A stretch of 64,000 nt of DNA from Candidatus Magasanikiibacteriota bacterium. GTDB taxonomy: Bacteria > Patescibacteriota > Patescibacteriia > Magasanikbacterales > UBA922. Numbering within the stretch: the first letter of the stretch is position 1; each line of letters begins with the position of its first letter. The stretch spans positions 26,604 through 90,603 of the forward strand of contig DOMK01000001.1 in assembly GCA_003510435.1 (NCBI GenBank), in the 5' to 3' direction. This document shows positions 5,347 through 62,572 of the stretch, one piece after another. The position numbers and the translations under genes were made by a program. The notes below the pieces were generated by a model. It did no database searches. It was not told the DNA's origin and was given only the letters and a program-made list of their open reading frames with translations.

Positions 5347-6585
5347 TTAGTATTGGTTTACTAAATTAATTATTCTTTCCGCATCTGTATTTGTAATATT
5401 TTTATCTGTGGGTAGATTGATAGACATAGCGGAAAGTTGTTCAGCTTTTGGACAATCCCCTGCTTTGTAGCCAGATTTGGTAATGTTAATATCAGCCGGC
5501 GCAATAGGACAAGAATACCAATCGCCCAAAATTATATTTTGATTTTTAGCTAACCTTCTCAATTTATGGGGATTTTCGACTAAAATTGTATAACGCAGCC
5601 AAACAGATTCATTAGTCCAGTCTGGTTTAGTAATTTTTGGATTATTAATTTTATCATTGTAAAGTTTGGCAATCTGTTGTCTGTGATTATTAAATTCAGA
5701 AATTTTTTCAGTTTGATTTAATAAAATTTTAGCCAGAGCATTAGGTAAGAGTGAAGGATAAAATAAAACTTGTTTGCCAATTTTTTCTTGCTTATAAATT
5801 ATCTTATTTGTCAGATTTAGTTTTTTTGCTATAGCCAATATCCACTTCCCTACTCCAATACTATACAATTTTTTACCAATAAAAAATATTGGATAATGGC
5901 ATAGATGTTGTTTTATTTTTAATAATCTAGAGTGTGGTAATCGTGTTTGATATTCTTTTATTTTACTAGCAGTTTTATCATCATTTGTAATCAATCCCCC
6001 GCCTCGGACACATGAAATGATTTTGTCGCTCCCAAAACTAAAAATTCCTATATCTCCAAAAGTGCCAAGTAATTTATTATTAAATTTTCCACCAAGAGAA
6101 TGGGCACAATCCTCAATAATTTTTAGATTATTTTCTTTGGCAATATTTAATAACTTTTCTAGATTGGCCGGTTTTCCAAAAGTGTGTTGAATAATTAAAA
6201 CTTTTGCCTTGTTAGTAATTTTTTTTTGCAAATCATTTGCATCCATATTGAAATCACTATCTATGTCTACATAAATTGGTTTAGCCCCTGTCCAAACAAC
6301 CGCATTACTTACTACCATACAAGTGTAGGCTTGAACTAAGACTTCATCATCTGGTTTTATATTTAATGATTTTAAAGCGTAAAATAAAGCTGTCCGACCA
6401 CTATCAAAAGCAAAAGCATATTTAGTAGAAAAATAATTTTTTAGCCAAGTTTCTATTTTTTCCGCACTGTCCCCTTTTTTCCAACTCCAGGGTTTAAACA
6501 AAAGACCGCAAGCGGTTTTTACATCTTGGTTGGTTAGATTGGGCGCAAAGCCAGTAAAAATAAATTTTTTAAATATGGAACTCAC
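5347..6585 (-). CDS. DegT/DnrJ/EryC1/StrS-family PLP-dependent sugar aminotransferase
   Basis: AFDSGRTALFYALKSL ... VLVQAYTCMVVSNAV ... IIEDCAHSLGGKF ... FSFGSDKIIS (PLP-binding lysine motif). Confidence 0.75.
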   Translation of the reverse strand: MSSIFKKFIFTGFAPNLTNQDVKTACGLLFKPWSWKKGDSAEKIETWLKNYFSTKYAFAFDSGRTALFYALKSLNIKPDDEVLVQAYTCMVVSNAVVWTGAKPIYVDIDSDFNMDANDLQKKITNKAKVLIIQHTFGKPANLEKLLNIAKENNLKIIEDCAHSLGGKFNNKLLGTFGDIGIFSFGSDKIISCVRGGGLITNDDKTASKIKEYQTRLPHSRLLKIKQHLCHYPIFFIGKKLYSIGVGKWILAIAKKLNLTNKIIYKQEKIGKQVLFYPSLLPNALAKILLNQTEKISEFNNHRQQIAKLYNDKINNPKITKPDWTNESVWLRYTILVENPHKLRRLAKNQNIILGDWYSCPIAPADINITKSGYKAGDCPKAEQLSAMSINLPTDKNITNTDAERIINLVNQY

Positions 6586-28029: not shown

Positions 28030-28260
28030 CAGTATTATAGGCGAGAGGTCTGTAAGTTTTTGCTTATAGGCCCTTCTCCTAATCGTCGGGAGAGGCGTGC
28101 AAGAGCACGTATAAGTCAGCTGAATGCCGGGGTGTCGGCATGGAAAAACATCCCAAGAGGGGTGGCTGACAGGGATTGTACCCAGACGATAGTCCAAGAG
28201 GACTAGGGCATTGTACTAGTCGTTTAGTCAACGACTGGTGTCTCCAAGCGGAGATATACA
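28030..28260 (+). other. GC-rich ~230-nt leader with multiple predicted stem-loops (possible cis-regulatory RNA or ncRNA) upstream of the island ORF
   Basis: Local hairpins such as cccttctcctaatcgtcgggagagg, gccggggtgtcggc, agtcaacgact; composition jumps from very AT-rich to GC-rich exactly here. Confidence 0.3.
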
Positions 28261-29196
28261 ATGAATTCCACGACTAAACTGCGGAGAATGACGATGAAGC
28301 GTTGCTTGTCAGAGCAGTTCAACATCCTGATGGATGAATTGGCCTCCATTGGTATGGCTGGCCTCTTCTGCCTCATCATCGGGATGGCCAAGAGCAAGTC
28401 GCAATTGGCCAGGTTCCACAACGAACTCAAGCCCAACCAGCGTCTCGTGCGTGGAGATTATATCATGCTCGAGGACTGGTGGGAGGCCTCGTATGAAAAG
28501 GCCAGAGGAGAACTCACTGAAGTGGCTAGAGAGAAGTTGCAAGAAGTGATTCTTCTCTCCTATCGCAACGAGCACAGTGCTGCGAATCTGAGCCACTACT
28601 ACGAACGGAAAATTAACGAGGAACGTTGGAGTAGAGAACATCCGAAAACCCCGCTTGCAACTTCTAGCGTCAACCTCGTGCTCTCTTGCCCCGAACGTGA
28701 CGGGCATGGCTACCACCACTTTCGCGCGTTCATGTTTAATGTAGAATTTGAAGTCAGTTGTACTTTTCTGGATAGCACACTACTAGTTCATATGTGCATC
28801 AAGAGAAATAAACTGACCGAAAATCTCGTACACAGGATTCTGACGTCCAAGCTGGTTAATGCCAGTTTCGGACATACAGGAGTGTATGTAAATAGTGGTG
28901 ATGAGCTGACCTTCAGGTTCGATCTCGGGGCTGATATAGGTAGGCGCTTGAAGGAGATGATCTCGGCATTTGATAAATCCGAGGGCGCTCACCGACGTGC
29001 TGACGTAGTGGCCATGGACACTTTTGCACATGAGGTTGGAAGAAACCTCATTGACGTCTGTGACCTTGAGCTGGATGGGCTCTACGCTGTAGTGCTGTTT
29101 GTCGCAGATGACCCACGTTGTCTGCAGTCAACGGTATTCGAGGATGGCGCACCGCACGCCAGGCATCGGGTCTGGTGCCATCGCACCAACGCCTAA
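28261..29196 (+). CDS. hypothetical protein (311 aa) encoded on a compositionally foreign GC-rich island; no recognisable domain
   Basis: Long ORF with GC-rich codon usage unlike all neighbours. Lies between a consensus promoter and two intrinsic terminators. Opposite-strand ORFs here look like GC-composition artefacts. Confidence 0.55.
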   Translation: MNSTTKLRRMTMKRCLSEQFNILMDELASIGMAGLFCLIIGMAKSKSQLARFHNELKPNQRLVRGDYIMLEDWWEASYEKARGELTEVAREKLQEVILLSYRNEHSAANLSHYYERKINEERWSREHPKTPLATSSVNLVLSCPERDGHGYHHFRAFMFNVEFEVSCTFLDSTLLVHMCIKRNKLTENLVHRILTSKLVNASFGHTGVYVNSGDELTFRFDLGADIGRRLKEMISAFDKSEGAHRRADVVAMDTFAHEVGRNLIDVCDLELDGLYAVVLFVADDPRCLQSTVFEDGAPHARHRVWCHRTNA

Positions 29197-29235
29197 GACC
29201 ACAGAAGACTTTACAACTCGGAGGATGTGAAGTGA

Positions 29236-29306
29236 CACGGGCGACCTATGACACCCCACAGGTCGCCCGTTCAAAAAAACAGATATTGTTAAATGTCTGT
29301 TTTTTA
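29236..29306 (+). terminator. tandem intrinsic terminators (ACGGGCGACC...GGTCGCCCGT then AAAAAAACAGA...TCTGTTTTTT)
   Basis: Two perfect hairpins, the second followed by a T-run, immediately 3' of the island ORF. Confidence 0.65.
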
Positions 29307-30470: not shown

Positions 30471-31775
30471 CTATATTCCCTCTCCTAACTCGCTTGGTTC
30501 AACTCTTGTTTGTTTGAAAATTTCTTTTTCAAATAGAATTATTCCTAATACACTGACCAAAACAATAGCCAAAAGAACAGAAGCTGATAAACTTTCTGTA
30601 AAAACATTATTAAAAATAGCAATGGCTAAAAATGCTAAGCCAATCTCCCCTCTTATGGTGGTGGCTCGAGCAATCAATATGCCTTCTCTTTTATTTTTAT
30701 AAAAGAAACGAATAAAACATTTACCAACAAAAGCCAAGATAACAAATATAAGAGCGTAGAGCCAAGTATGATAATTCAATAAAGATTCTCTACCCAACAT
30801 TGTTCCAAGACTAACCAAAAATCCACCCACAAAAATATGCATGTAGCCTTCAATTTTTGTCCAAACTTCGCTTTTTATTTTATGATCCATTTTGGATAGT
30901 ATTAAGCCAATACCAAATGCTCCCAAAATTGGTTCTAGACCAATCGCGGAAGTCAAGGCACAAGCCAAAATTAAAGCGCCAAAAAAGAAACGAGTATAAG
31001 ATCCTGTGCTAGTTGTCACATAATGTTGGTCAAGATATTTTGCAGCTTTGTCTATAAAATTGAATGACCACATAATAAAAGCAACAAATAAGAACCCAAT
31101 AACTGATAATGCTATTAAGAAAATATCACCAAATTCCGCACCACCATATAAAAATTTTCCTAAAATTGTCAAAAGCAACATTCCAATAATATTACTCATC
31201 AGGGCTATACTTAAAATTTTATCACCAACTTCGGTATGGAGTTTGTTGCCAGCTTTGAGAGCGGAAACTGAAAGCCCGAGCGATGTGGCCGTAAAAATAC
31301 CACCAAGAAAAACTGCTGGTAGCCAATTGAGATGTAATAAATAATAGCCAACTAAAGAAAATAAAGCCAATTGAACTAATGTGGCAGACACAGTGGATAA
31401 TATGTTAGAACCAAAATTCTTTTTTAGAATTGATAAATCAAAATATAATCCAGCTTCAAATAATATAAAAAATATACCAGCTAAGCGGACAATCTCTACT
31501 CCTTGAGCATAGGGATCAATCGCGCCAAACAAGGCTGGACCAATAATTATTCCTAAAAATATTTTACCAGCCATTGGTGCAACATTGAAGACCTTGGCTA
31601 GACGAGCACCAAAAGAGGCAAAAATTGCTAAGAATGAAATATCTAGTAGAATTGGTAAAATACTACTGATTTCGTAGTTATCATTTGCCAATAAAACTGG
31701 TCTTAGATAATACAAAATAAAAATTGCAATGGCTGATTCTATAATTACCAAGAATAAAGTTTTAAATTTATTCAT
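30471..31775 (-). CDS. monovalent cation:proton antiporter (CPA/Na+-H+ exchanger family)
   Basis: 434 aa, 11-13 TM helices, Na_H_Exchanger-like repeats (GIIIGPALFG ... LILSKMDHK). Confidence 0.7.
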   Translation of the reverse strand: MNKFKTLFLVIIESAIAIFILYYLRPVLLANDNYEISSILPILLDISFLAIFASFGARLAKVFNVAPMAGKIFLGIIIGPALFGAIDPYAQGVEIVRLAGIFFILFEAGLYFDLSILKKNFGSNILSTVSATLVQLALFSLVGYYLLHLNWLPAVFLGGIFTATSLGLSVSALKAGNKLHTEVGDKILSIALMSNIIGMLLLTILGKFLYGGAEFGDIFLIALSVIGFLFVAFIMWSFNFIDKAAKYLDQHYVTTSTGSYTRFFFGALILACALTSAIGLEPILGAFGIGLILSKMDHKIKSEVWTKIEGYMHIFVGGFLVSLGTMLGRESLLNYHTWLYALIFVILAFVGKCFIRFFYKNKREGILIARATTIRGEIGLAFLAIAIFNNVFTESLSASVLLAIVLVSVLGIILFEKEIFKQTRVEPSELGEGI

Positions 31776-32257
31776 AAAGTTGATTAATAAATTATAAATT
31801 AAGATGATGGTATTATACTATAATTAACTCAAAAGAAACAATATTCGTGGGGATAAAAAAACACTCACCAATCTCCTTGAACTAATTCCATAATATAGAA
31901 TCAATTCAAGTGCGGTGAGTGTTTTTTACACTACCCCAACCCACCATCCCACTGGATAGCGGGGTTGGCAGCTCTTCCACAACTAATGATGGTTCCGGTC
32001 TAGACGACCGGGTAGACCAACGTGTGGTCGGGGAAGAACACTTTCTTTTGTACCATCCCCTCCGACATCTCCACCCAACCTGTGGCGTTGAACTGATGAT
32101 GACCTTCTTGGGTCAACAACAGTTTCTCATAAATTGTTCCATCTGGGTGTTCACCCTGACGAAACTTGCCGTTGATAGGCAATTGACCAAAGCTCATATC
32201 CATGAATAAACCATACGGTAGTTTGAGTAATATATTTTATATTAATTTTAAATTTTG

Positions 32258-43991: not shown

Positions 43992-44732
43992 CTACTTACT
44001 GATTACTATTACAAACTCCCCTTTTTCTGAAATATTCATCGCCAATATTTCTTTAATTGTCCCGCGATAAATTGTTTCAAATTTTTTAGTTAATTCACGA
44101 CACACACACATTTGTCTGTCTTCTTCTAAAACTTCAGCCAATTCTCCTAAACATTTTTTTATTCTGTGATTTGATTCATAAAATGCGACTGTGTATTCTG
44201 CCTTCGCCACATCAGCAAAAAAAGTTTTACGACCTTTTTTGTGTGGCGGAAAACCCATGAATACAAATTTGTCGGTTGGAAAGCCTGAAATACTTAAAGC
44301 CGTTATTACTGCACTTGGTCCTGGAATTGGCTCTACTGTGTCATCCTGAGCGGAGCGGAGCGGAGTCGAAGGATCCCCTTCTTCAACAGGGGGATATTTC
44401 GACTTCGCCCTCCGGGCTTCGCTCAATATGACGTTTATGAGTTGGTTTCCTGGATCTGATATACCTGGCGTACCAGCATCAGTTACTAATGCCAAATTTT
44501 TACCTTGTTCCAACAATTCCTTGATCTCACGAACTTTCTTTTCTTCACTATGTTGATGATAAGAAATAGTTTTGGTTTTAATCTCAAAATGATTCAACAA
44601 ATTTAGTGTTACTCTAGTATCTTCACACAAAATAAAATCCACACTTTTTAATATTTTAAGTGCACGTAAAGTGATGTCGCCTAGATTACCAATTGGCGTG
44701 GCGACTATGTATAATTTACCTGTATTTTCCAT
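43992..44732 (-). CDS. rsmI: 16S rRNA (cytidine1402-2'-O)-methyltransferase RsmI, carrying an in-frame family-A element
   Basis: LYIVATPIGNLGDITLRALKIL ... ILCEDTRVT. Inserted RRAKSKYPPVEEGDPSTPLRSAQDDTVEPIPGPS is encoded by the repeat. Confidence 0.85.
   Translation of the reverse strand: MENTGKLYIVATPIGNLGDITLRALKILKSVDFILCEDTRVTLNLLNHFEIKTKTISYHQHSEEKKVREIKELLEQGKNLALVTDAGTPGISDPGNQLINVILSEARRAKSKYPPVEEGDPSTPLRSAQDDTVEPIPGPSAVITALSISGFPTDKFVFMGFPPHKKGRKTFFADVAKAEYTVAFYESNHRIKKCLGELAEVLEEDRQMCVCRELTKKFETIYRGTIKEILAMNISEKGEFVIVISK
44340..44432. repeat. family-A palindromic element inside rsmI
   Basis: gtcatcctgagcggagcggagcggagtcgaaggatcccc...gggggatatttcgacttcgccctccgggcttcgctcaatatgac. 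Confidence 0.7.
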
Positions 44733-59635: not shown

Positions 59636-60658
59636 TTAAAATTTTGTAGGTACAGCTGGTGTATTTTTGTATAATTCTGGATCAATTGTTCTTTCAAAAC
59701 ACACTCTACCCTTATCATGGCTCCAGTTTTGTTGGTAATTATCATAAGGTGAATAATAAGTAGGTTCTCGATTCACCAAACTGTCAGTCAAATTTGAACC
59801 AGCAAAATTAGCGCACAAATTGAATGATAATGGACTAATTATATTATACTCATAAGCAATCTGAGTATTTGGGTCAGTTGGTACCATAAATCCAGAGATA
59901 TTGTCTTGTAAGTCTGCCAATTTTGTTGGCAAAGCATTTTTCTTGGTCCAGTAATCAACGACTTGACTTTGCATTACTTGCAAATCATTTAGCCTTTGGT
60001 CATCAAACCGACGATTGCGTTGTTCACTTGGGGTACCAACAATAAAAAATCCCAAGACCACACTACCTAAAACCAAAACTCCAGACACAATAGCCAAAAT
60101 TCTCAACACTTTAGTTTTTTGTTCTTCTCTTTTTAGATCCCATAGATAATAACCAAAAACCGCTCCGGCTACCACTAATACGACTAAAACTTTTAAGAAA
60201 AATCTAGTACTCAATTCTCCATTTAGAAAATTATAAACAAAAGTCATGAGGTCTATAATAATCGTAATGGCCGACACAAACAAAGTAAAGTAAGTGAGCC
60301 ACTTGCGTAATTTCAAATCTCGTTTGGCTGGAATGCTAATCAAATCTTTTTCCAAAAACCAAGTTGTCAATAGATAAGCGGGAAAAGCAATCAAAAGAAC
60401 CGATGATGACCAACGCACCCCATTGGCAATGTTCATAAAATAATAATCTAGCGAATCTGGAAATGAGGCATTGATATATTGGATGAACAAAGTGATAAAA
60501 CCAATCACACTAAGATAAAATGTGACAATATTGAAAAGATGTAAAAAAACATCCTTTGGTGTGCTTTTTATGTGATTTTCCATATTAAATAAATTAATAC
60601 TAATTAAATTTTTATTTGTATAGAACACAAATTTTACAAATTGGACAAATTTACTCAA
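59636..60658 (-). CDS. polytopic membrane protein with C-terminal extracytoplasmic domain, unknown function
   Basis: 340 aa; 5-6 TM helices then a soluble tail. Confidence 0.45.
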   Translation of the reverse strand: MSKFVQFVKFVFYTNKNLISINLFNMENHIKSTPKDVFLHLFNIVTFYLSVIGFITLFIQYINASFPDSLDYYFMNIANGVRWSSSVLLIAFPAYLLTTWFLEKDLISIPAKRDLKLRKWLTYFTLFVSAITIIIDLMTFVYNFLNGELSTRFFLKVLVVLVVAGAVFGYYLWDLKREEQKTKVLRILAIVSGVLVLGSVVLGFFIVGTPSEQRNRRFDDQRLNDLQVMQSQVVDYWTKKNALPTKLADLQDNISGFMVPTDPNTQIAYEYNIISPLSFNLCANFAGSNLTDSLVNREPTYYSPYDNYQQNWSHDKGRVCFERTIDPELYKNTPAVPTKF

Positions 60659-60898
60659 ATCTAACTAATATAATTTGTGAAGATTTGTGATAATTTAGGT
60701 AATTTGAGTTCTATTTGAACATGGTTATTATACCACAAAGTTAGACTTTTAAATATTTTGTCAATGGCGTTGATTTTTAAAAAAACAAAAACCATCCTAC
60801 TCCCACGCAAATCTAAAATAATTTTAAACTTACGCGGACGGATGGCTTTTGAGTGGGAAAAAGAGCTATTGGAGAAAAACCAACCGTCAGCGGGTGAA

Positions 60899-61348
60899 TC
60901 ACCAGGAGCCGTGATACCTGCTGTCCGACTCCTGGGACACCTTGATGACCTGTTGTCGACTGATGACGACGAGCTGGAACATGTGGTGGCAGTTCGGACA
61001 CCTGATCGGCCCCGTGGTCGCGTTCGATAGCAACGAGACCTTCCTGCCACAGTCCTCGTGGGGGCACTGGACGCTGGCTTGCCCCGCGTGGATCTGCATG
61101 TCAGGAAGAGCCTTGGGCTTGGGCGTCGTGTCGGTCTTCTTGGACGCGGACGACAACGACTGGCAGTTGGGGCACAGCCCGTTGTGCTTGGTCGTGAGAC
61201 CGTTGCACTGAGGGCAACGCTCCATCTGCCCATCCTTGGTGCCGACGGCGTTGCACCGCTGGCACCAGTACTGATCGCCATGGTGCGGGTGAGGCACCAT
61301 GTGGTGGGGCTTGGCCCCTTTACACCCTTTCCAGAGACCCTTCTTCAT
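60899..61348 (-). CDS. His-rich, multi-CxxC zinc-ribbon protein on a GC-rich island
   Basis: 149 aa with CQRC ... CPQC ... CPNC ... CPHEDC ... CPNC. GC-rich codon usage unlike neighbours. The other long frames across this island are composition artefacts. Confidence 0.5.
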   Translation of the reverse strand: MKKGLWKGCKGAKPHHMVPHPHHGDQYWCQRCNAVGTKDGQMERCPQCNGLTTKHNGLCPNCQSLSSASKKTDTTPKPKALPDMQIHAGQASVQCPHEDCGRKVSLLSNATTGPIRCPNCHHMFQLVVISRQQVIKVSQESDSRYHGSW

Positions 61349-61411
61349 CGAAACACCACTTGGTTGAATTCTCCAATAGAAATTTAATCATTTCTACTTA
61401 AAAATGTCAAT

Positions 61412-62572
61412 TTATTTTTTTATTATTTTATACACCCCTGCCTTTTTCCCAGAAATTAATACTGAGAAATTTTGTTCTAATATAAATTTATCAGTAAAGT
61501 CTTTTAATAAATCTAAAAATAATTCTCTCTGCCCCAACAATACAACCGCCACGCCACCTGGTTTTAAAACTCTAAAAAATGATTGAAGCATCTGGGTGTA
61601 AAATATATTTAATTCACTCTCGCTCTTTTTATTAAAAATCCCCCACGGTGGATCAGTCACAATTTTATCAATTGAATTATTAGCAATACTGGGCAAAACC
61701 AAAGCATCACCATTATATACTTCAATTTTCAAATTCATCCTTTGGACATTAGTTTGCAAATAATTAACTAGTTTTTTATCATTGTCCGTGGCAATCACGC
61801 GCGTATACTTATTTATTTTTACCCGCTCAATCGGAATCGCACCCGAGCCAACAAACGGATCCAAAAAAACATCAGTCTTATTCATGTCTGACAATTGACA
61901 CAAAATATTTGTCACTTCGGGACGGAGTTCACCTTGTTGAAGACTCTTGGCTGAATCATGGTTGTGAGTAATCCGCATACCAAAAAATCCCCTGCCTTCA
62001 CTCCGCAATAATATCCAAAATTCAATATCAGGTTTTTTTCGATTAGTTCTATATTTGGTAAAGTATTTTATTTTTTCTTCCAATTTTATTAAAAGCGTAT
62101 TGTCCACGGCTGACAATTGATTTTCTTTGGAAGTAATAATGCGAAAAGTTTTTTGTCTCACTGACAAAACCGGAATATTAAGCTTGGCATTATTCACCAA
62201 TTCATTAAGCATTAAATCTAAGGATAAATTTTTGTCAGAAAATTCTTTTATGAGAATAAAAGTATTATTTACAAACCGTAATTCTTTTACTTTGTTTACA
62301 TCTGTCGTAGTAGTATAAACAACTAACCCGTCCAAAAGTAAAACAATCTTGGTTTTATCCAGAGATTTAATTAGAAAATCTTTGACGGCATTTTCAAAAC
62401 CGCTTACAAATGTTGAATAATAGATGTACATAATAAGGAATAAGGAGAAAGGAATAAAAAAATATAATAAACTCTGTTTGTTCTGTTTGTTCTGTTTGTT
62501 CTGTTTGTTCTGTTTGTTCTGTTTGTTCTGTTTGTTCTGTTTGTTCTGTTTGTTCTGTTGTAAAATTAACAA
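61412..62572 (-). CDS. class I SAM-dependent RNA methyltransferase (DPPW amino-methyltransferase motif; THUMP-like N-terminal region) with (QNK)9 N-terminal repeat
   Basis: FLDPFVGSGAIPIE (motif I), IVTDPPWG (motif IV). True start may be the ATG at 62431 downstream of the repeat. Confidence 0.6.
   Translation of the reverse strand: MLILQQNKQNKQNKQNKQNKQNKQNKQNKQNKQSLLYFFIPFSLFLIMYIYYSTFVSGFENAVKDFLIKSLDKTKIVLLLDGLVVYTTTTDVNKVKELRFVNNTFILIKEFSDKNLSLDLMLNELVNNAKLNIPVLSVRQKTFRIITSKENQLSAVDNTLLIKLEEKIKYFTKYRTNRKKPDIEFWILLRSEGRGFFGMRITHNHDSAKSLQQGELRPEVTNILCQLSDMNKTDVFLDPFVGSGAIPIERVKINKYTRVIATDNDKKLVNYLQTNVQRMNLKIEVYNGDALVLPSIANNSIDKIVTDPPWGIFNKKSESELNIFYTQMLQSFFRVLKPGGVAVVLLGQRELFLDLLKDFTDKFILEQNFSVLISGKKAGVYKIIKK
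62474..62560. repeat. perfect tandem repeat (CTGTTTGTT)x~9.5
   Basis: Read directly. In frame it encodes QNKQNK... at the 5' end of the methyltransferase ORF. Confidence 0.9.

What the first reader, a model, noticed from the sequence alone, without database searches (positions are those of the whole stretch)
60720..61390. Second GC-rich island encoding a His-rich multi-zinc-ribbon protein
This is a ~670-bp block of sharply higher G+C between a membrane-protein gene and the RNA methyltransferase gene. The only sensible frame encodes a 149-aa protein with five CxxC/CxxxxC pairs and an N-terminal PHHMVPHPHHGD stretch. It resembles small zinc-ribbon nucleic-acid-binding or toxin-antitoxin-type proteins. 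The same compositional signature as the 28-kb island suggests a common foreign source and possibly related function.
Basis: partly seen in the sequence, partly recalled or inferred. Interest (0 to 1): 0.65.

Follow-up and report, generated by a model that had tools for sequence, protein, structure and literature searches.

The report
Foreign zinc-ribbon orphan gene cassette
A roughly 650-base piece of foreign, G+C-rich DNA carrying one self-contained gene for a small zinc-binding protein of unknown function sits between two housekeeping genes of an A+T-rich groundwater bacterium, and although it is real, it is an ordinary kind of recent gene acquisition.

Summary
Window 60880-61340 is 62% G+C in a 33.7% genome, the strongest compositional outlier in the window, and it coincides almost exactly with ORF 60899-61348 (-). 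That frame has third-position G+C of 0.85, five Cys pairs (P=0.009), and one distant homologue that conserves every Cys of the N-terminal half.

It is not an assembly chimera: at least seven assemblies carry identical sequence. A relative with 90-95% identical flanks (L005) has an empty site, with the methyltransferase stop followed 78 bp later by the DUF5671 gene. This marks about 650 bp (60766-61414) as an insertion.

The insert reads as one transcription unit:
- a TTGACA-17-TTAAAT promoter
- the ORF
- a hairpin plus T-run terminator
- an 11(+6)-bp inverted repeat bracketing the ORF

The protein is an orphan. It passes no curated family threshold, has no phage, plasmid or defence-system match, and gives no confident fold. 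It probably binds three zinc ions.

The 28-kb island has similar architecture but different composition (51% G+C, third-position G+C 0.58) and no sequence similarity. A common source is therefore not supported, and neither is a toxin-antitoxin reading.

Verdict: a moron-like, horizontally acquired single-gene cassette. It is a new member of a known kind and of modest interest.

The parts
60766..61414 (-). Whole segment absent from the closest relative (the insertion, about 650 bp). The boundaries are good to roughly +/-10 nt, because the short direct repeats AAAAAT and ATTGACA occur at both junctions.
   Evidence: BLAST and MAFFT against L005. L005 303-1320 matches window 62432-61415, and L005 1331-1371 matches window 60765-60725, with only 10 nt between these two blocks in L005.
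61381..61410 (-). Sigma-70-type promoter-like site, TTGACA - 17 nt (ending in TGA) - TTAAAT. It starts 2 nt after the methyltransferase stop codon.
   Evidence: The consensus scan gives 10 of 12 matches, the best in the region. The sequence was read directly. The site is predicted, not shown to be active.
61362..61379 (-). 5' arm of the inverted repeat that brackets the ORF (CTATTGGAGAA, then TTCAACC). It lies in the predicted 5' UTR; the 11-nt core ends 20 nt before the ATG.
   Evidence: the repeat finder pair I10 is 11 nt and 100% complementary. The chance of an exact repeat of 11 nt or more between the two flanks is 0.004. The repeat forms the closing stem of the predicted transcript fold, extended by 6 further pairs.
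60899..61348 (-). Gene for a 149-aa, basic (pI 9.2), Cys/His-rich protein.
- Residues 1-64: N-terminal domain with conserved C9, H15, H23 and three CxxC pairs.
- Residues 65-88: Lys/Thr/Pro-rich linker.
- Residues 89-125: C-terminal Cx4C...CxxC ribbon.
- After that: a beta-hairpin tail.
   Evidence: ORF list. Third-position G+C of 0.85. P0004 is a homologue, 48% identical, conserving all 7 aligned Cys. The C-terminal ribbon is 44-47% identical to the repeated ribbon of P0005. Pfam zinc-ribbon matches are below threshold.
60866..60885 (-). 3' arm of the inverted repeat (GGTTGG, TTT, then TTCTCCAATAG). It lies in the 3' UTR; the 11-nt core starts 22 nt after the stop codon.
60779..60851 (-). Long imperfect hairpin followed by TTTTTGTTTTTTT, which looks like an intrinsic terminator. 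It is absent from the empty site.
   Evidence: RNA fold of 60760-60905 (-): -43.7 kcal/mol, z = -4.5, and none of 200 shuffles folds as well. The simple terminator scan missed it because the loop exceeds 8 nt.
60725..60765 (-). Host sequence conserved with the relative, containing the extended -10 promoter (TGGTATAAT) of the DUF5671 gene. It marks the downstream edge of the insertion.
   Evidence: 95% identity to L005 1331-1371.

Best explanation
This is a recently acquired, population-specific single-gene cassette of foreign origin. About 650 bp were inserted into the 78-bp spacer between a methyltransferase gene and a DUF5671 membrane-protein gene of a Candidatus Magasanikbacteria (candidate phyla radiation, CPR) genome.

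**Shown**
- The segment is real DNA of this population.
- It is missing from a close relative.
- Its G+C-rich part coincides with an ORF that has the codon periodicity of a high-G+C donor.
- The ORF belongs to a very small protein family in which the Cys and His ligands are conserved.

**Inferred**
- The cassette entered by illegitimate (microhomology-type) recombination. No recombinase is present, and the junctions carry only the short direct repeats AAAAAT and ATTGACA.
- It is transcribed from its own TTGACA-17-TTAAAT promoter and stops at its own hairpin and T-run terminator.
- The 5' and 3' UTRs pair over 11+6 bp into a panhandle that encloses the ORF, which may stabilise the mRNA or limit its translation.
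- The product binds about three zinc ions: two in the N-terminal domain (C9, H15, H23, C29, C32, C45, C48, C59, C62) and one in the C-terminal ribbon (C95, C100, C117, C120).
- Like other small basic zinc-ribbon proteins, it acts by binding nucleic acid or a partner protein. The most likely role is an accessory or conflict-type one, as is typical of such add-on genes, but the specific function is not known.
For: **Composition.** The block 60880-61340 is 62.3% G+C against 33.7% for the window, the top outlier.

**Coding.** Codon-position G+C is 0.53/0.47/0.85, against 0.29-0.31 at third positions of host genes. Almost all codons end in C or G.

**Not an artefact.** The sequence is 100% identical across both junctions in six assemblies of five sequencing runs or samples made with different assemblers: MEGAHIT SRR2177986 and SRR2177953, Logan SRR2177986 and SRR6487867, SPAdes ERZ5996431 and JGI 3300009031. 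Two shorter contigs (L004, L020) are also identical; L004 crosses the methyltransferase-side junction, and both end inside the 1.1-kb comparison stretch.

**Empty site.** L005 is a Magasanikiibacteriota MAG with 90-95% nucleotide identity in both flanking genes. Its methyltransferase stop is followed after 78 bp by the DUF5671 start codon.

**Protein family.**
- An exhaustive HMMER search of 1.84 billion representative proteins found one homologue of the N-terminal domain. P0004 has E = 1e-7 and 48% identity, and conserves C9, H15, H23 and all three CxxC pairs.
- The C-terminal ribbon matches the repeated ribbon of P0005.
- Five Cys pairs occur by chance with P = 0.009.

**Transcription-unit anatomy.** Promoter-like site, terminator hairpin with z = -4.5, and the bracketing inverted repeat with P = 0.004.
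Against: - No expression data exist. The promoter, terminator and panhandle are predictions.
- The promoter and terminator flanks are A+T-rich like the host, which is odd for DNA arriving from a high-G+C donor. Part of the 650 bp may therefore be host-lineage spacer that L005 lacks.
- The more distant relatives (L006, L009; 68-69% amino-acid identity) have different synteny and cannot confirm that this was an insertion rather than a deletion.
- No donor was found: no phage, plasmid or viral-contig match.
- The structure models are of low confidence (pLDDT 50-52) and gave no significant fold match, so zinc stoichiometry and binding partners are inferred from motifs only.
Confidence: 0.75

Rival explanations
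1. The block is an assembly chimera or contaminant, meaning a fragment of a high-G+C organism wrongly joined into a low-G+C contig.
For: The composition changes abruptly at both ends. The protein has no named relatives.
Against: Identical junctions were recovered with four different assembly pipelines: six contigs from five runs or samples span both junctions, and two shorter contigs (L004, L020) are also identical. The G+C block is framed by a promoter, a terminator and a bracketing inverted repeat, which is not what a random join would give.
Confidence: 0.02
2. The G+C-rich block is a structured non-coding RNA or DNA element, and the 149-aa ORF is a by-product of the high G+C content.
For: The predicted transcript folds more stably than shuffles (z = -4.9), with a 17-bp closing stem. 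G+C-rich DNA produces long ORFs in several frames, here of 206, 109, 90 and 89 aa. JGI gene calling chose the antisense ORFs.
Against: There is strong three-base periodicity, with third-position G+C of 0.85 against 0.47 at second positions. A homologue only 48% identical at the protein level conserves every aligned Cys. No Rfam family matches, even at E <= 1. The other frames have no Pfam match.
Confidence: 0.05
3. The gene is ancestral at this site and was deleted in the L005 lineage. On this reading, its G+C richness is a property of the gene family rather than a mark of recent transfer.
For: - The homologue P0004 is also G+C-rich (55%) behind an A+T-rich promoter-like leader (34%).
- L006 carries a different G+C-rich block directly upstream of the orthologous DUF5671 gene, and L009 carries one 0.7 kb upstream. 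The locus may therefore have held such blocks for a long time.
- The cassette's own flanks have host-like composition.
Against: A third-position G+C of 0.85 inside a genome whose genes have 0.29-0.31 would not persist for long under the host's mutational bias. The L006 and L009 blocks are unrelated in sequence to this one. No other Magasanikbacteria protein resembles it among 5.8 billion clusters.
Confidence: 0.1
4. It is a small mobile element bounded by terminal inverted repeats (60866-61379, 514 bp) that carries the ORF as a passenger and is moved in trans by an unknown transposase.
For: An 11-bp perfect inverted repeat, extendable to 17 bp, lies symmetrically 20 and 22 nt outside the ORF (P = 0.004). 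The P0004 contig has an 8-nt inverted repeat at equivalent places.
Against: - The segment missing from the empty site is about 135 bp longer than the repeat-bounded unit and includes the promoter and terminator.
- There is no direct duplication immediately outside the repeat arms.
- The repeat motif occurs nowhere else in the 64 kb beyond chance.
- No transposase is nearby.
Confidence: 0.07
5. It is a toxin or antitoxin, for example a fold-back-controlled toxin mRNA like hok, or a zinc-ribbon antitoxin.
For: The gene is small and stands alone. Pairing of the 5' and 3' ends of the mRNA resembles the fold-back inhibition of type I toxin mRNAs (the comparison rests on general knowledge of hok/sok). 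An antisense ORF overlaps the 3' end of the gene.
Against: There is no partner gene and no hydrophobic peptide. Pfam, NCBIfam, PHROGs and PADLOC give no match to a toxin-antitoxin or defence family. The antisense ORF lacks coding periodicity (0.62/0.40/0.45) and has no family match.
Confidence: 0.04

Closest known systems
Phage 'morons': independent add-on transcription units in phage and prophage genomes (reviewed in PMC3594210)
   Same: One ORF with its own promoter and terminator lies between two genes that are adjacent in a related genome, and its base composition differs from the surroundings.
   Different: It is not in a phage or prophage. The flanks are chromosomal housekeeping genes (BipA, methyltransferase, membrane protein), and no phage or viral contig matches.
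Zinc-ribbon domain families: Pfam DZR PF12773, Zn_ribbon_19 PF14369, and the MJ0042-type finger TIGR02098 / Zn_ribbon_4 and Zn_ribbon_5
   Same: It has paired CxxC knuckles 10-16 residues apart. The C-terminal ribbon has the pattern CPxxC...RCPxCxxxF and is 44-47% identical to such a ribbon in P0005.
   Different: All scores are below the curated cut-offs: 24.7 against 30.8 bits, 23.0 against 27.3, and 9.3 against 20.9. The N-terminal domain, with its conserved C-x5-H-x7-H lead-in, has a single homologue in 1.84 billion representatives and belongs to no described family.
Zinc ribbons of ribosomal protein bL32 and of a/eIF2-gamma
   Same: There is local motif similarity, CPQC-x10-CPNC, to D. 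radiodurans L32 and archaeal IF2-gamma.
   Different: E-values are 0.13-0.18 over about 23-33 residues only, the rest of the protein is unrelated, and the gene is not in a ribosomal context.
hok/sok-type type I toxin mRNAs (fold-back inhibition by pairing of the 5' and 3' ends)
   Same: A long-range stem is predicted between the 5' and 3' ends of the mRNA, enclosing the whole ORF.
   Different: The product is a 149-aa soluble zinc protein, not a membrane peptide of about 50 aa. No antisense RNA gene has been identified, and there is no family match.
Miniature inverted-repeat or insertion-sequence elements
   Same: Short terminal inverted repeats lie around a unit of about 0.5 kb.
   Different: The element is single-copy, has no target duplication at the repeat ends and no transposase, and the inserted segment is larger than the repeat-bounded unit.

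Membership tests
Phage moron | Independent transcription unit: own promoter, one ORF, own factor-independent terminator | tested here: met
   Promoter-like site matching 10 of 12 positions, the ORF, and a hairpin plus T-run with z = -4.5. These are predictions from sequence only.
Phage moron | Lies between two genes that are adjacent in a related genome | tested here: met
   In L005 the methyltransferase and DUF5671 genes are 78 bp apart.
Phage moron | Base composition differs from neighbouring genes | tested here: met
   62% against 33-36% G+C.
Phage moron | Resides in a phage or prophage genome | tested here: not met
   The flanks are BipA, an rRNA/tRNA-type methyltransferase, MFS and other chromosomal genes. 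There is no hit in phage records or IMG/VR.
Pfam double zinc ribbon (DZR, PF12773) / Zn_ribbon_19 (PF14369) | Score at or above the curated gathering threshold | tested here: not met
   23.0 against 27.3 bits, and 24.7 against 30.8 bits.
Zinc-ribbon fold (general) | Two CxxC-type knuckles supplying four zinc ligands on a beta-hairpin scaffold | tested here: inconclusive
   The motifs are present and conserved. The AlphaFold models show short strands around the knuckles, but pLDDT is only 50-52 and Foldseek found no match with E <= 0.001.
MJ0042-type zinc finger (TIGR02098) | Score at or above the NCBIfam cut-off | tested here: not met
   9.3 against 20.9 bits. The resemblance to the P0005 ribbon is local only.
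Toxin-antitoxin system | Two-component locus (toxin plus cognate antitoxin gene or antisense RNA) with a recognisable family | tested here: not met
   It is a single gene. Pfam, NCBIfam and PADLOC give no match to a toxin, antitoxin or defence family. The antisense ORF lacks coding periodicity.
Insertion sequence or miniature inverted-repeat element | Terminal inverted repeats directly flanked by a target-site duplication, with multiple copies in the genome | tested here: not met
   The inverted repeat is present. There is no duplication next to its arms and no further copy in the 64 kb.
Integron gene cassette | attC recombination site with conserved core sites at the cassette boundary, and an integrase or a cassette array nearby | not tested
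   No attC model was run. By eye the junctions lack a GTTRRRY core, and no integrase or array is present in the window.

The most novel reading that the evidence does not exclude
The cassette may be one example of a so far undescribed class of autonomous single-gene units in CPR bacteria. Each would consist of a near-consensus promoter, a G+C-rich orphan ORF and a long hairpin terminator, sometimes with UTR inverted repeats. They would move without a recombinase of their own and accumulate at preferred intergenic sites.

Several observations point that way. The 28-kb island has the same architecture. An unrelated G+C-rich block sits at exactly the same place, directly upstream of the DUF5671 gene, in L006. 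Another lies nearby in L009. The only homologue (P0004) also sits behind a TTGACA-17-TTAAAT promoter, with an inverted repeat around its ORF.

The evidence does not exclude this, but it does not establish it either. Homology between the upstream regions is not significant (P = 0.13).
Probability: 0.1. Interest if true: 0.6.

Novelty: new member of a known kind. Interest (0 to 1): 0.3.

Why it matters
CPR (Patescibacteria) genomes are small and streamlined, so a freshly acquired gene that is not yet adapted to the host shows how they gain genes. The empty site is known, and the compositional boundary falls at the ORF itself.

The protein defines a tiny zinc-binding family of two members among 1.84 billion representative proteins, with a conserved Cys/His lead-in that no database describes.

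If G+C-rich orphan blocks recur at the same locus in related genomes as a general pattern, that would point to an insertion hot spot or a cassette-like route of gene flow in these bacteria. As it stands, this is a well-documented example of ordinary horizontal acquisition of an orphan gene.

Tried and rejected
- **Known RNA families.** No hit at gathering thresholds in the window or in L005-L007. Around the island, only a meaningless miRNA hit at E = 0.59. No tRNA or tmRNA that could serve as an integration target.
- **Word-seeded protein searches.** The search with the protein found only itself, and the search with the two-sequence alignment found nothing.
- **Family libraries.** PHROGs, NCBIfam and PADLOC gave nothing at or near a threshold.
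- **tblastn against phage and plasmid records.** Nothing, apart from one E = 0.9 hit.
- **IMG/VR.** Four loci (L013-L016) matched residues 3-33 at 55% identity. The match is the motif GAKPHHMVP in an ORF that overlaps a phage cytosine-methyltransferase gene, it contains no Cys, and the number of pattern hits fits chance, so I rejected it as homology. Scans with the full proteins found nothing.
- **Structure.** Two AlphaFold runs, single sequence and a 5-row alignment, gave pLDDT of 50 and 52. Foldseek against the PDB gave no match with E <= 0.001, only generic zinc-ribbon and RING-like entries.
- **Shared cassette chassis.** I tested whether the promoter and leader regions of the window cassette, L008, L006 and the 28-kb island are homologous. 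Local alignment scores do not exceed shuffles (P = 0.12-0.86). The terminators of the window and L006 are alike in design but not demonstrably homologous.
- **Common origin of the two islands.** No DNA or translated similarity.
- **Exact junction and target duplication.** This cannot be resolved because the flanks differ by 5-10% from L005. Only the short repeats AAAAAT and ATTGACA are seen at both ends.
Full report
**1. Observation**

The window averages 33.7% G+C, and its 500-bp windows have a standard deviation of 4.7%. The 500-bp window starting at 60851 reaches 60.4%, the maximum in the 64 kb. At 100-bp resolution, G+C climbs from 25-32% at 60700-60850 to 58-66% between 60900 and 61350, then falls to 22-27% by 61400.

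A log-odds segmentation puts the G+C-rich block at 60880-61340 (62.3%). This coincides almost exactly with ORF 60899-61348 on the minus strand.

The ORF encodes 149 residues. The Cys pairs are at positions 29/32, 45/48, 59/62, 95/100 and 117/120, there is one further Cys at position 9, and the His-rich stretch occupies residues 14-25. Shuffling the protein gives five or more such pairs in 0.86% of trials.

Several other ORFs overlap in other frames, as expected in G+C-rich DNA. The 149-aa frame, however, has codon-position G+C of 0.53/0.47/0.85, and nearly all of its codons end in C or G. Host genes have third-position G+C of 0.29-0.31. The other frames have no Pfam match.

**2. Artefact or real**

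The exact protein is encoded on contigs from SRR2177986, SRR2177953 and SRR2177954 (MEGAHIT) and SRR6487867 (Logan). The identical flanking gene led to further contigs: a Logan assembly of SRR2177986, a MEGAHIT contig from SRR2177956, a SPAdes contig from ERZ5996431, and the 171.6-kb contig of JGI metagenome 3300009031. The only database match of the 28-kb island's protein, an NCBI Magasanikbacteria MAG protein, is recorded on a contig of that same length.

All are 100% identical to the window, and six of them (from five runs or samples) span both junctions. L004 crosses the methyltransferase-side junction and L020 starts inside the insert; both end inside the 1.1-kb comparison stretch. A chimera reproduced identically by four pipelines in several samples is very unlikely.

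The JGI gene caller chose antisense ORFs in the island. This may explain why the protein is held only by the Logan and ENA sources.

**3. Empty site**

A scan of one genome per species found L005 (JBAQFA010000016, a Magasanikiibacteriota MAG). Its DUF5671 protein is 98% identical to the window's. At the DNA level:
- the methyltransferase gene is 90% identical
- the DUF5671 gene is 95% identical
- the BipA gene is 90% identical

In L005 the methyltransferase ORF ends at 1329 and the DUF5671 ORF starts at 1408, with no G+C rise in between. L005 1331-1371 matches window 60765-60725 at 95%, and L005 303-1320 matches window 62432-61415. Window 60766-61414, about 650 bp, therefore has no counterpart in L005.

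The insertion abuts the methyltransferase stop codon. The window protein ends in ...KIIKK, whereas the L005 protein ends in ...KIIKKNG. Short direct repeats (AAAAAT and ATTGACA) occur at both junctions. With 5-10% divergence in the flanks, they cannot be told apart from chance, from microhomology, or from a decayed target duplication.

More distant relatives (L006 and L009, 68-69% protein identity; L007 and L011, 45-58%) have other genes upstream and do not show which state is ancestral. The polarity therefore rests on composition. A third-position G+C of 0.85 in a genome at about 0.30 is what a recent import looks like.

**4. Anatomy of the insert** (minus-strand orientation)

- **Promoter.** Two bases after the methyltransferase stop codon comes TTGACA, then a 17-nt spacer ending in TGA, then TTAAAT. 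This is the best promoter-like site in the region.
- **Leader.** A leader of about 33 nt follows and contains CTATTGGAGAA.
- **ORF.** The ORF comes next.
- **Inverted repeat.** Twenty-two nt after the stop codon lies the perfect complement, TTCTCCAATAG. An exact inverted repeat of 11 nt or more between the two flanks arises in 0.4% of shuffles. In the predicted fold of the transcript, it extends by six further pairs (UUCAAC/GUUGG plus one more) into the closing stem of the whole molecule. The overall stability has z = -4.9.
- **Terminator.** Downstream is a long imperfect hairpin followed by TTTTTGTTTTTTT (z = -4.5).

The insert thus reads as a complete transcription unit. None of this has been shown experimentally.

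The G+C richness is confined to the ORF. The promoter, leader and terminator loop are as A+T-rich as the host.

**5. The protein**

Pfam gives only sub-threshold zinc-ribbon matches: Zn_ribbon_19 at 24.7 bits against a cut-off of 30.8, and DZR at 23.0 against 27.3. NCBIfam, PHROGs and PADLOC give nothing meaningful. The word-seeded search of 5.8 billion clusters found only the protein itself and a one-residue variant, G101D.

The exhaustive HMMER search of 1.84 billion representatives found six proteins with E <= 0.001. One of these is the protein itself, and three owe their score to short repeats (a repeat-rich 880-aa and a 1512-aa protein, and a C2H2 finger array). The other two are informative:

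- **P0004** (147 aa, E = 1e-7) aligns with residues 3-64 at 48% identity. It conserves C9, K13, P14, H15, M17, V18, P21, H23, G24, all six Cys of the three CxxC pairs, and the TTK between the second and third pairs. The His-rich stretch is therefore a conserved motif with two invariant His, not low-complexity sequence.
- **P0005** carries two copies of a ribbon that is 44-47% identical to residues 89-124. Its pattern, CPxC...RCPxCxxxF, is typical of MJ0042-type fingers.

Against PDB sequences, the second and third pairs (CPQC-x10-CPNC) weakly resemble the ribbons of ribosomal protein L32 and IF2-gamma, with E = 0.13-0.18.

The protein is basic (pI 9.2), and P0004 is more so (pI 11.2). Two AlphaFold runs gave pLDDT of 50 and 52, with short strands around the knuckles. 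Foldseek found nothing with E <= 0.001.

My reading is a two-domain protein that binds about three zinc ions and acts by binding nucleic acid or another protein. This is an inference from motifs and charge only.

**6. The homologue's context**

P0004 lies on a 594-bp contig. Its ORF is 55% G+C, and the 73 nt upstream are 34% G+C. That upstream stretch carries TTGACA, 17 nt ending in TGA, then TTAAAT, the same arrangement as in the window. An 8-nt inverted repeat (GAAAGAAA/TTTCTTTC) lies just after the -10 box and 4 nt after the stop codon.

This parallel is suggestive. However, local alignment of the two upstream regions is no better than shuffles (P = 0.13), and an 8-nt repeat is weak evidence on its own.

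**7. The 28-kb island and other islands**

The second outlier is 28069-29269, at 51% G+C. It holds a 311-aa ORF with codon-position G+C of 0.55/0.38/0.58. This ORF has no Pfam, PHROGs, NCBIfam or PADLOC match. In 5.8 billion clusters it has no relative other than itself.

The island has a TTGACA-17-TATTTT promoter-like site with TG before the -10 box, a 240-nt leader, and two hairpins with T-runs after the ORF. Its architecture is therefore similar to the 61-kb cassette.

Its composition and codon choice differ, and there is no sequence similarity to the 61-kb island. The trinucleotide correlation is 0.49, and both islands are anticorrelated with the host. The two islands look like separate acquisitions of the same general kind.

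L006 has an unrelated block of about 55% G+C (5540-5900) directly upstream of its DUF5671 orthologue. That block has a weaker promoter-like site and a similar long hairpin with a T-run. L009 has a block of about 55-60% G+C 0.7-1.5 kb upstream. This hints at a preferred site, but with so few genomes it may be coincidence.

**8. Comparison with known things**

The closest functional analogy is the phage moron: an independent promoter-ORF-terminator unit of deviant composition, sitting between genes that are adjacent in relatives (PMC3594210). Three of the four defining features are met. The fourth, residence in a phage genome, is not.

It is not a member of any curated zinc-ribbon family, because it scores below their thresholds. 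It is not a toxin-antitoxin pair, and it is not an insertion sequence or miniature repeat element: it is single-copy, has no target duplication at the repeat arms, and the inserted segment is longer than the repeat-bounded unit. Integron cassettes were considered by eye only.

**9. Verdict**

The feature is real and well delimited, and the empty site makes it a clean example of recent gene gain in a CPR genome. The mechanism of entry and the function of the protein remain inferred. It is a new member of a known kind, a horizontally acquired orphan gene encoding a zinc-ribbon protein. Interest is modest. It would rise only if the recurring G+C-rich single-gene blocks prove to be a distinct cassette system.

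Noticed in passing
window 28069-29269: A second compositional island (51% G+C) holds a 311-aa orphan ORF (28261-29196, +). Upstream are a TTGACA-17-TATTTT promoter-like site and a 240-nt G+C-rich leader; downstream are two hairpins with T-runs. The only database match is the same protein in an NCBI Magasanikbacteria MAG. No empty site was sought.
   Followed up: partly
L006 5540-5900 (GW2011_GWC2_37_14) and L009 2400-3250: Unrelated G+C-rich blocks (55-60%) lie directly upstream of the DUF5671 orthologue in L006 and 0.7 kb upstream in L009. The L006 block may encode an 80-aa orphan and ends in a long hairpin plus TTTTTTGTTTTTT, much like the window cassette. This may indicate an insertion hot spot.
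   Followed up: partly
window 60586-60724: The 5' leader of the DUF5671 gene is about 105 nt longer than in L005. It contains two CACAAAT and three ATTTGT(G) motifs in inverted orientation, which could be an operator or hairpin. This is a second difference from the relative, separate from the island.
   Followed up: no
window 62440-62572: The methyltransferase ORF, if started at the upstream TTG, begins with eight tandem QNK repeats (a 9-nt CAAAACAAA repeat). Gene callers start the protein downstream of this (339 aa). It is probably a simple-sequence repeat in the upstream region.
   Followed up: no
window 31934-32087 and 44309-44424: There are two short G+C-rich segments (57-59%, 115-155 bp). 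The first lies in an intergenic stretch after the gene ending at 31775 and has no Rfam match. The second lies inside a 246-aa ORF.
   Followed up: no
window 1-64000: ARAGORN and Rfam (at gathering thresholds) found no tRNA, rRNA or any other known RNA family in the 64 kb.
   Followed up: no
L016 4472-5773 (IMG/VR contig): In a viral contig, a cytosine-5 DNA methyltransferase ORF is overlapped by a 365-aa ORF in another frame that carries repeated WPTP motifs. The true gene may contain a frameshift. It was met only as a chance motif hit.
   Followed up: no
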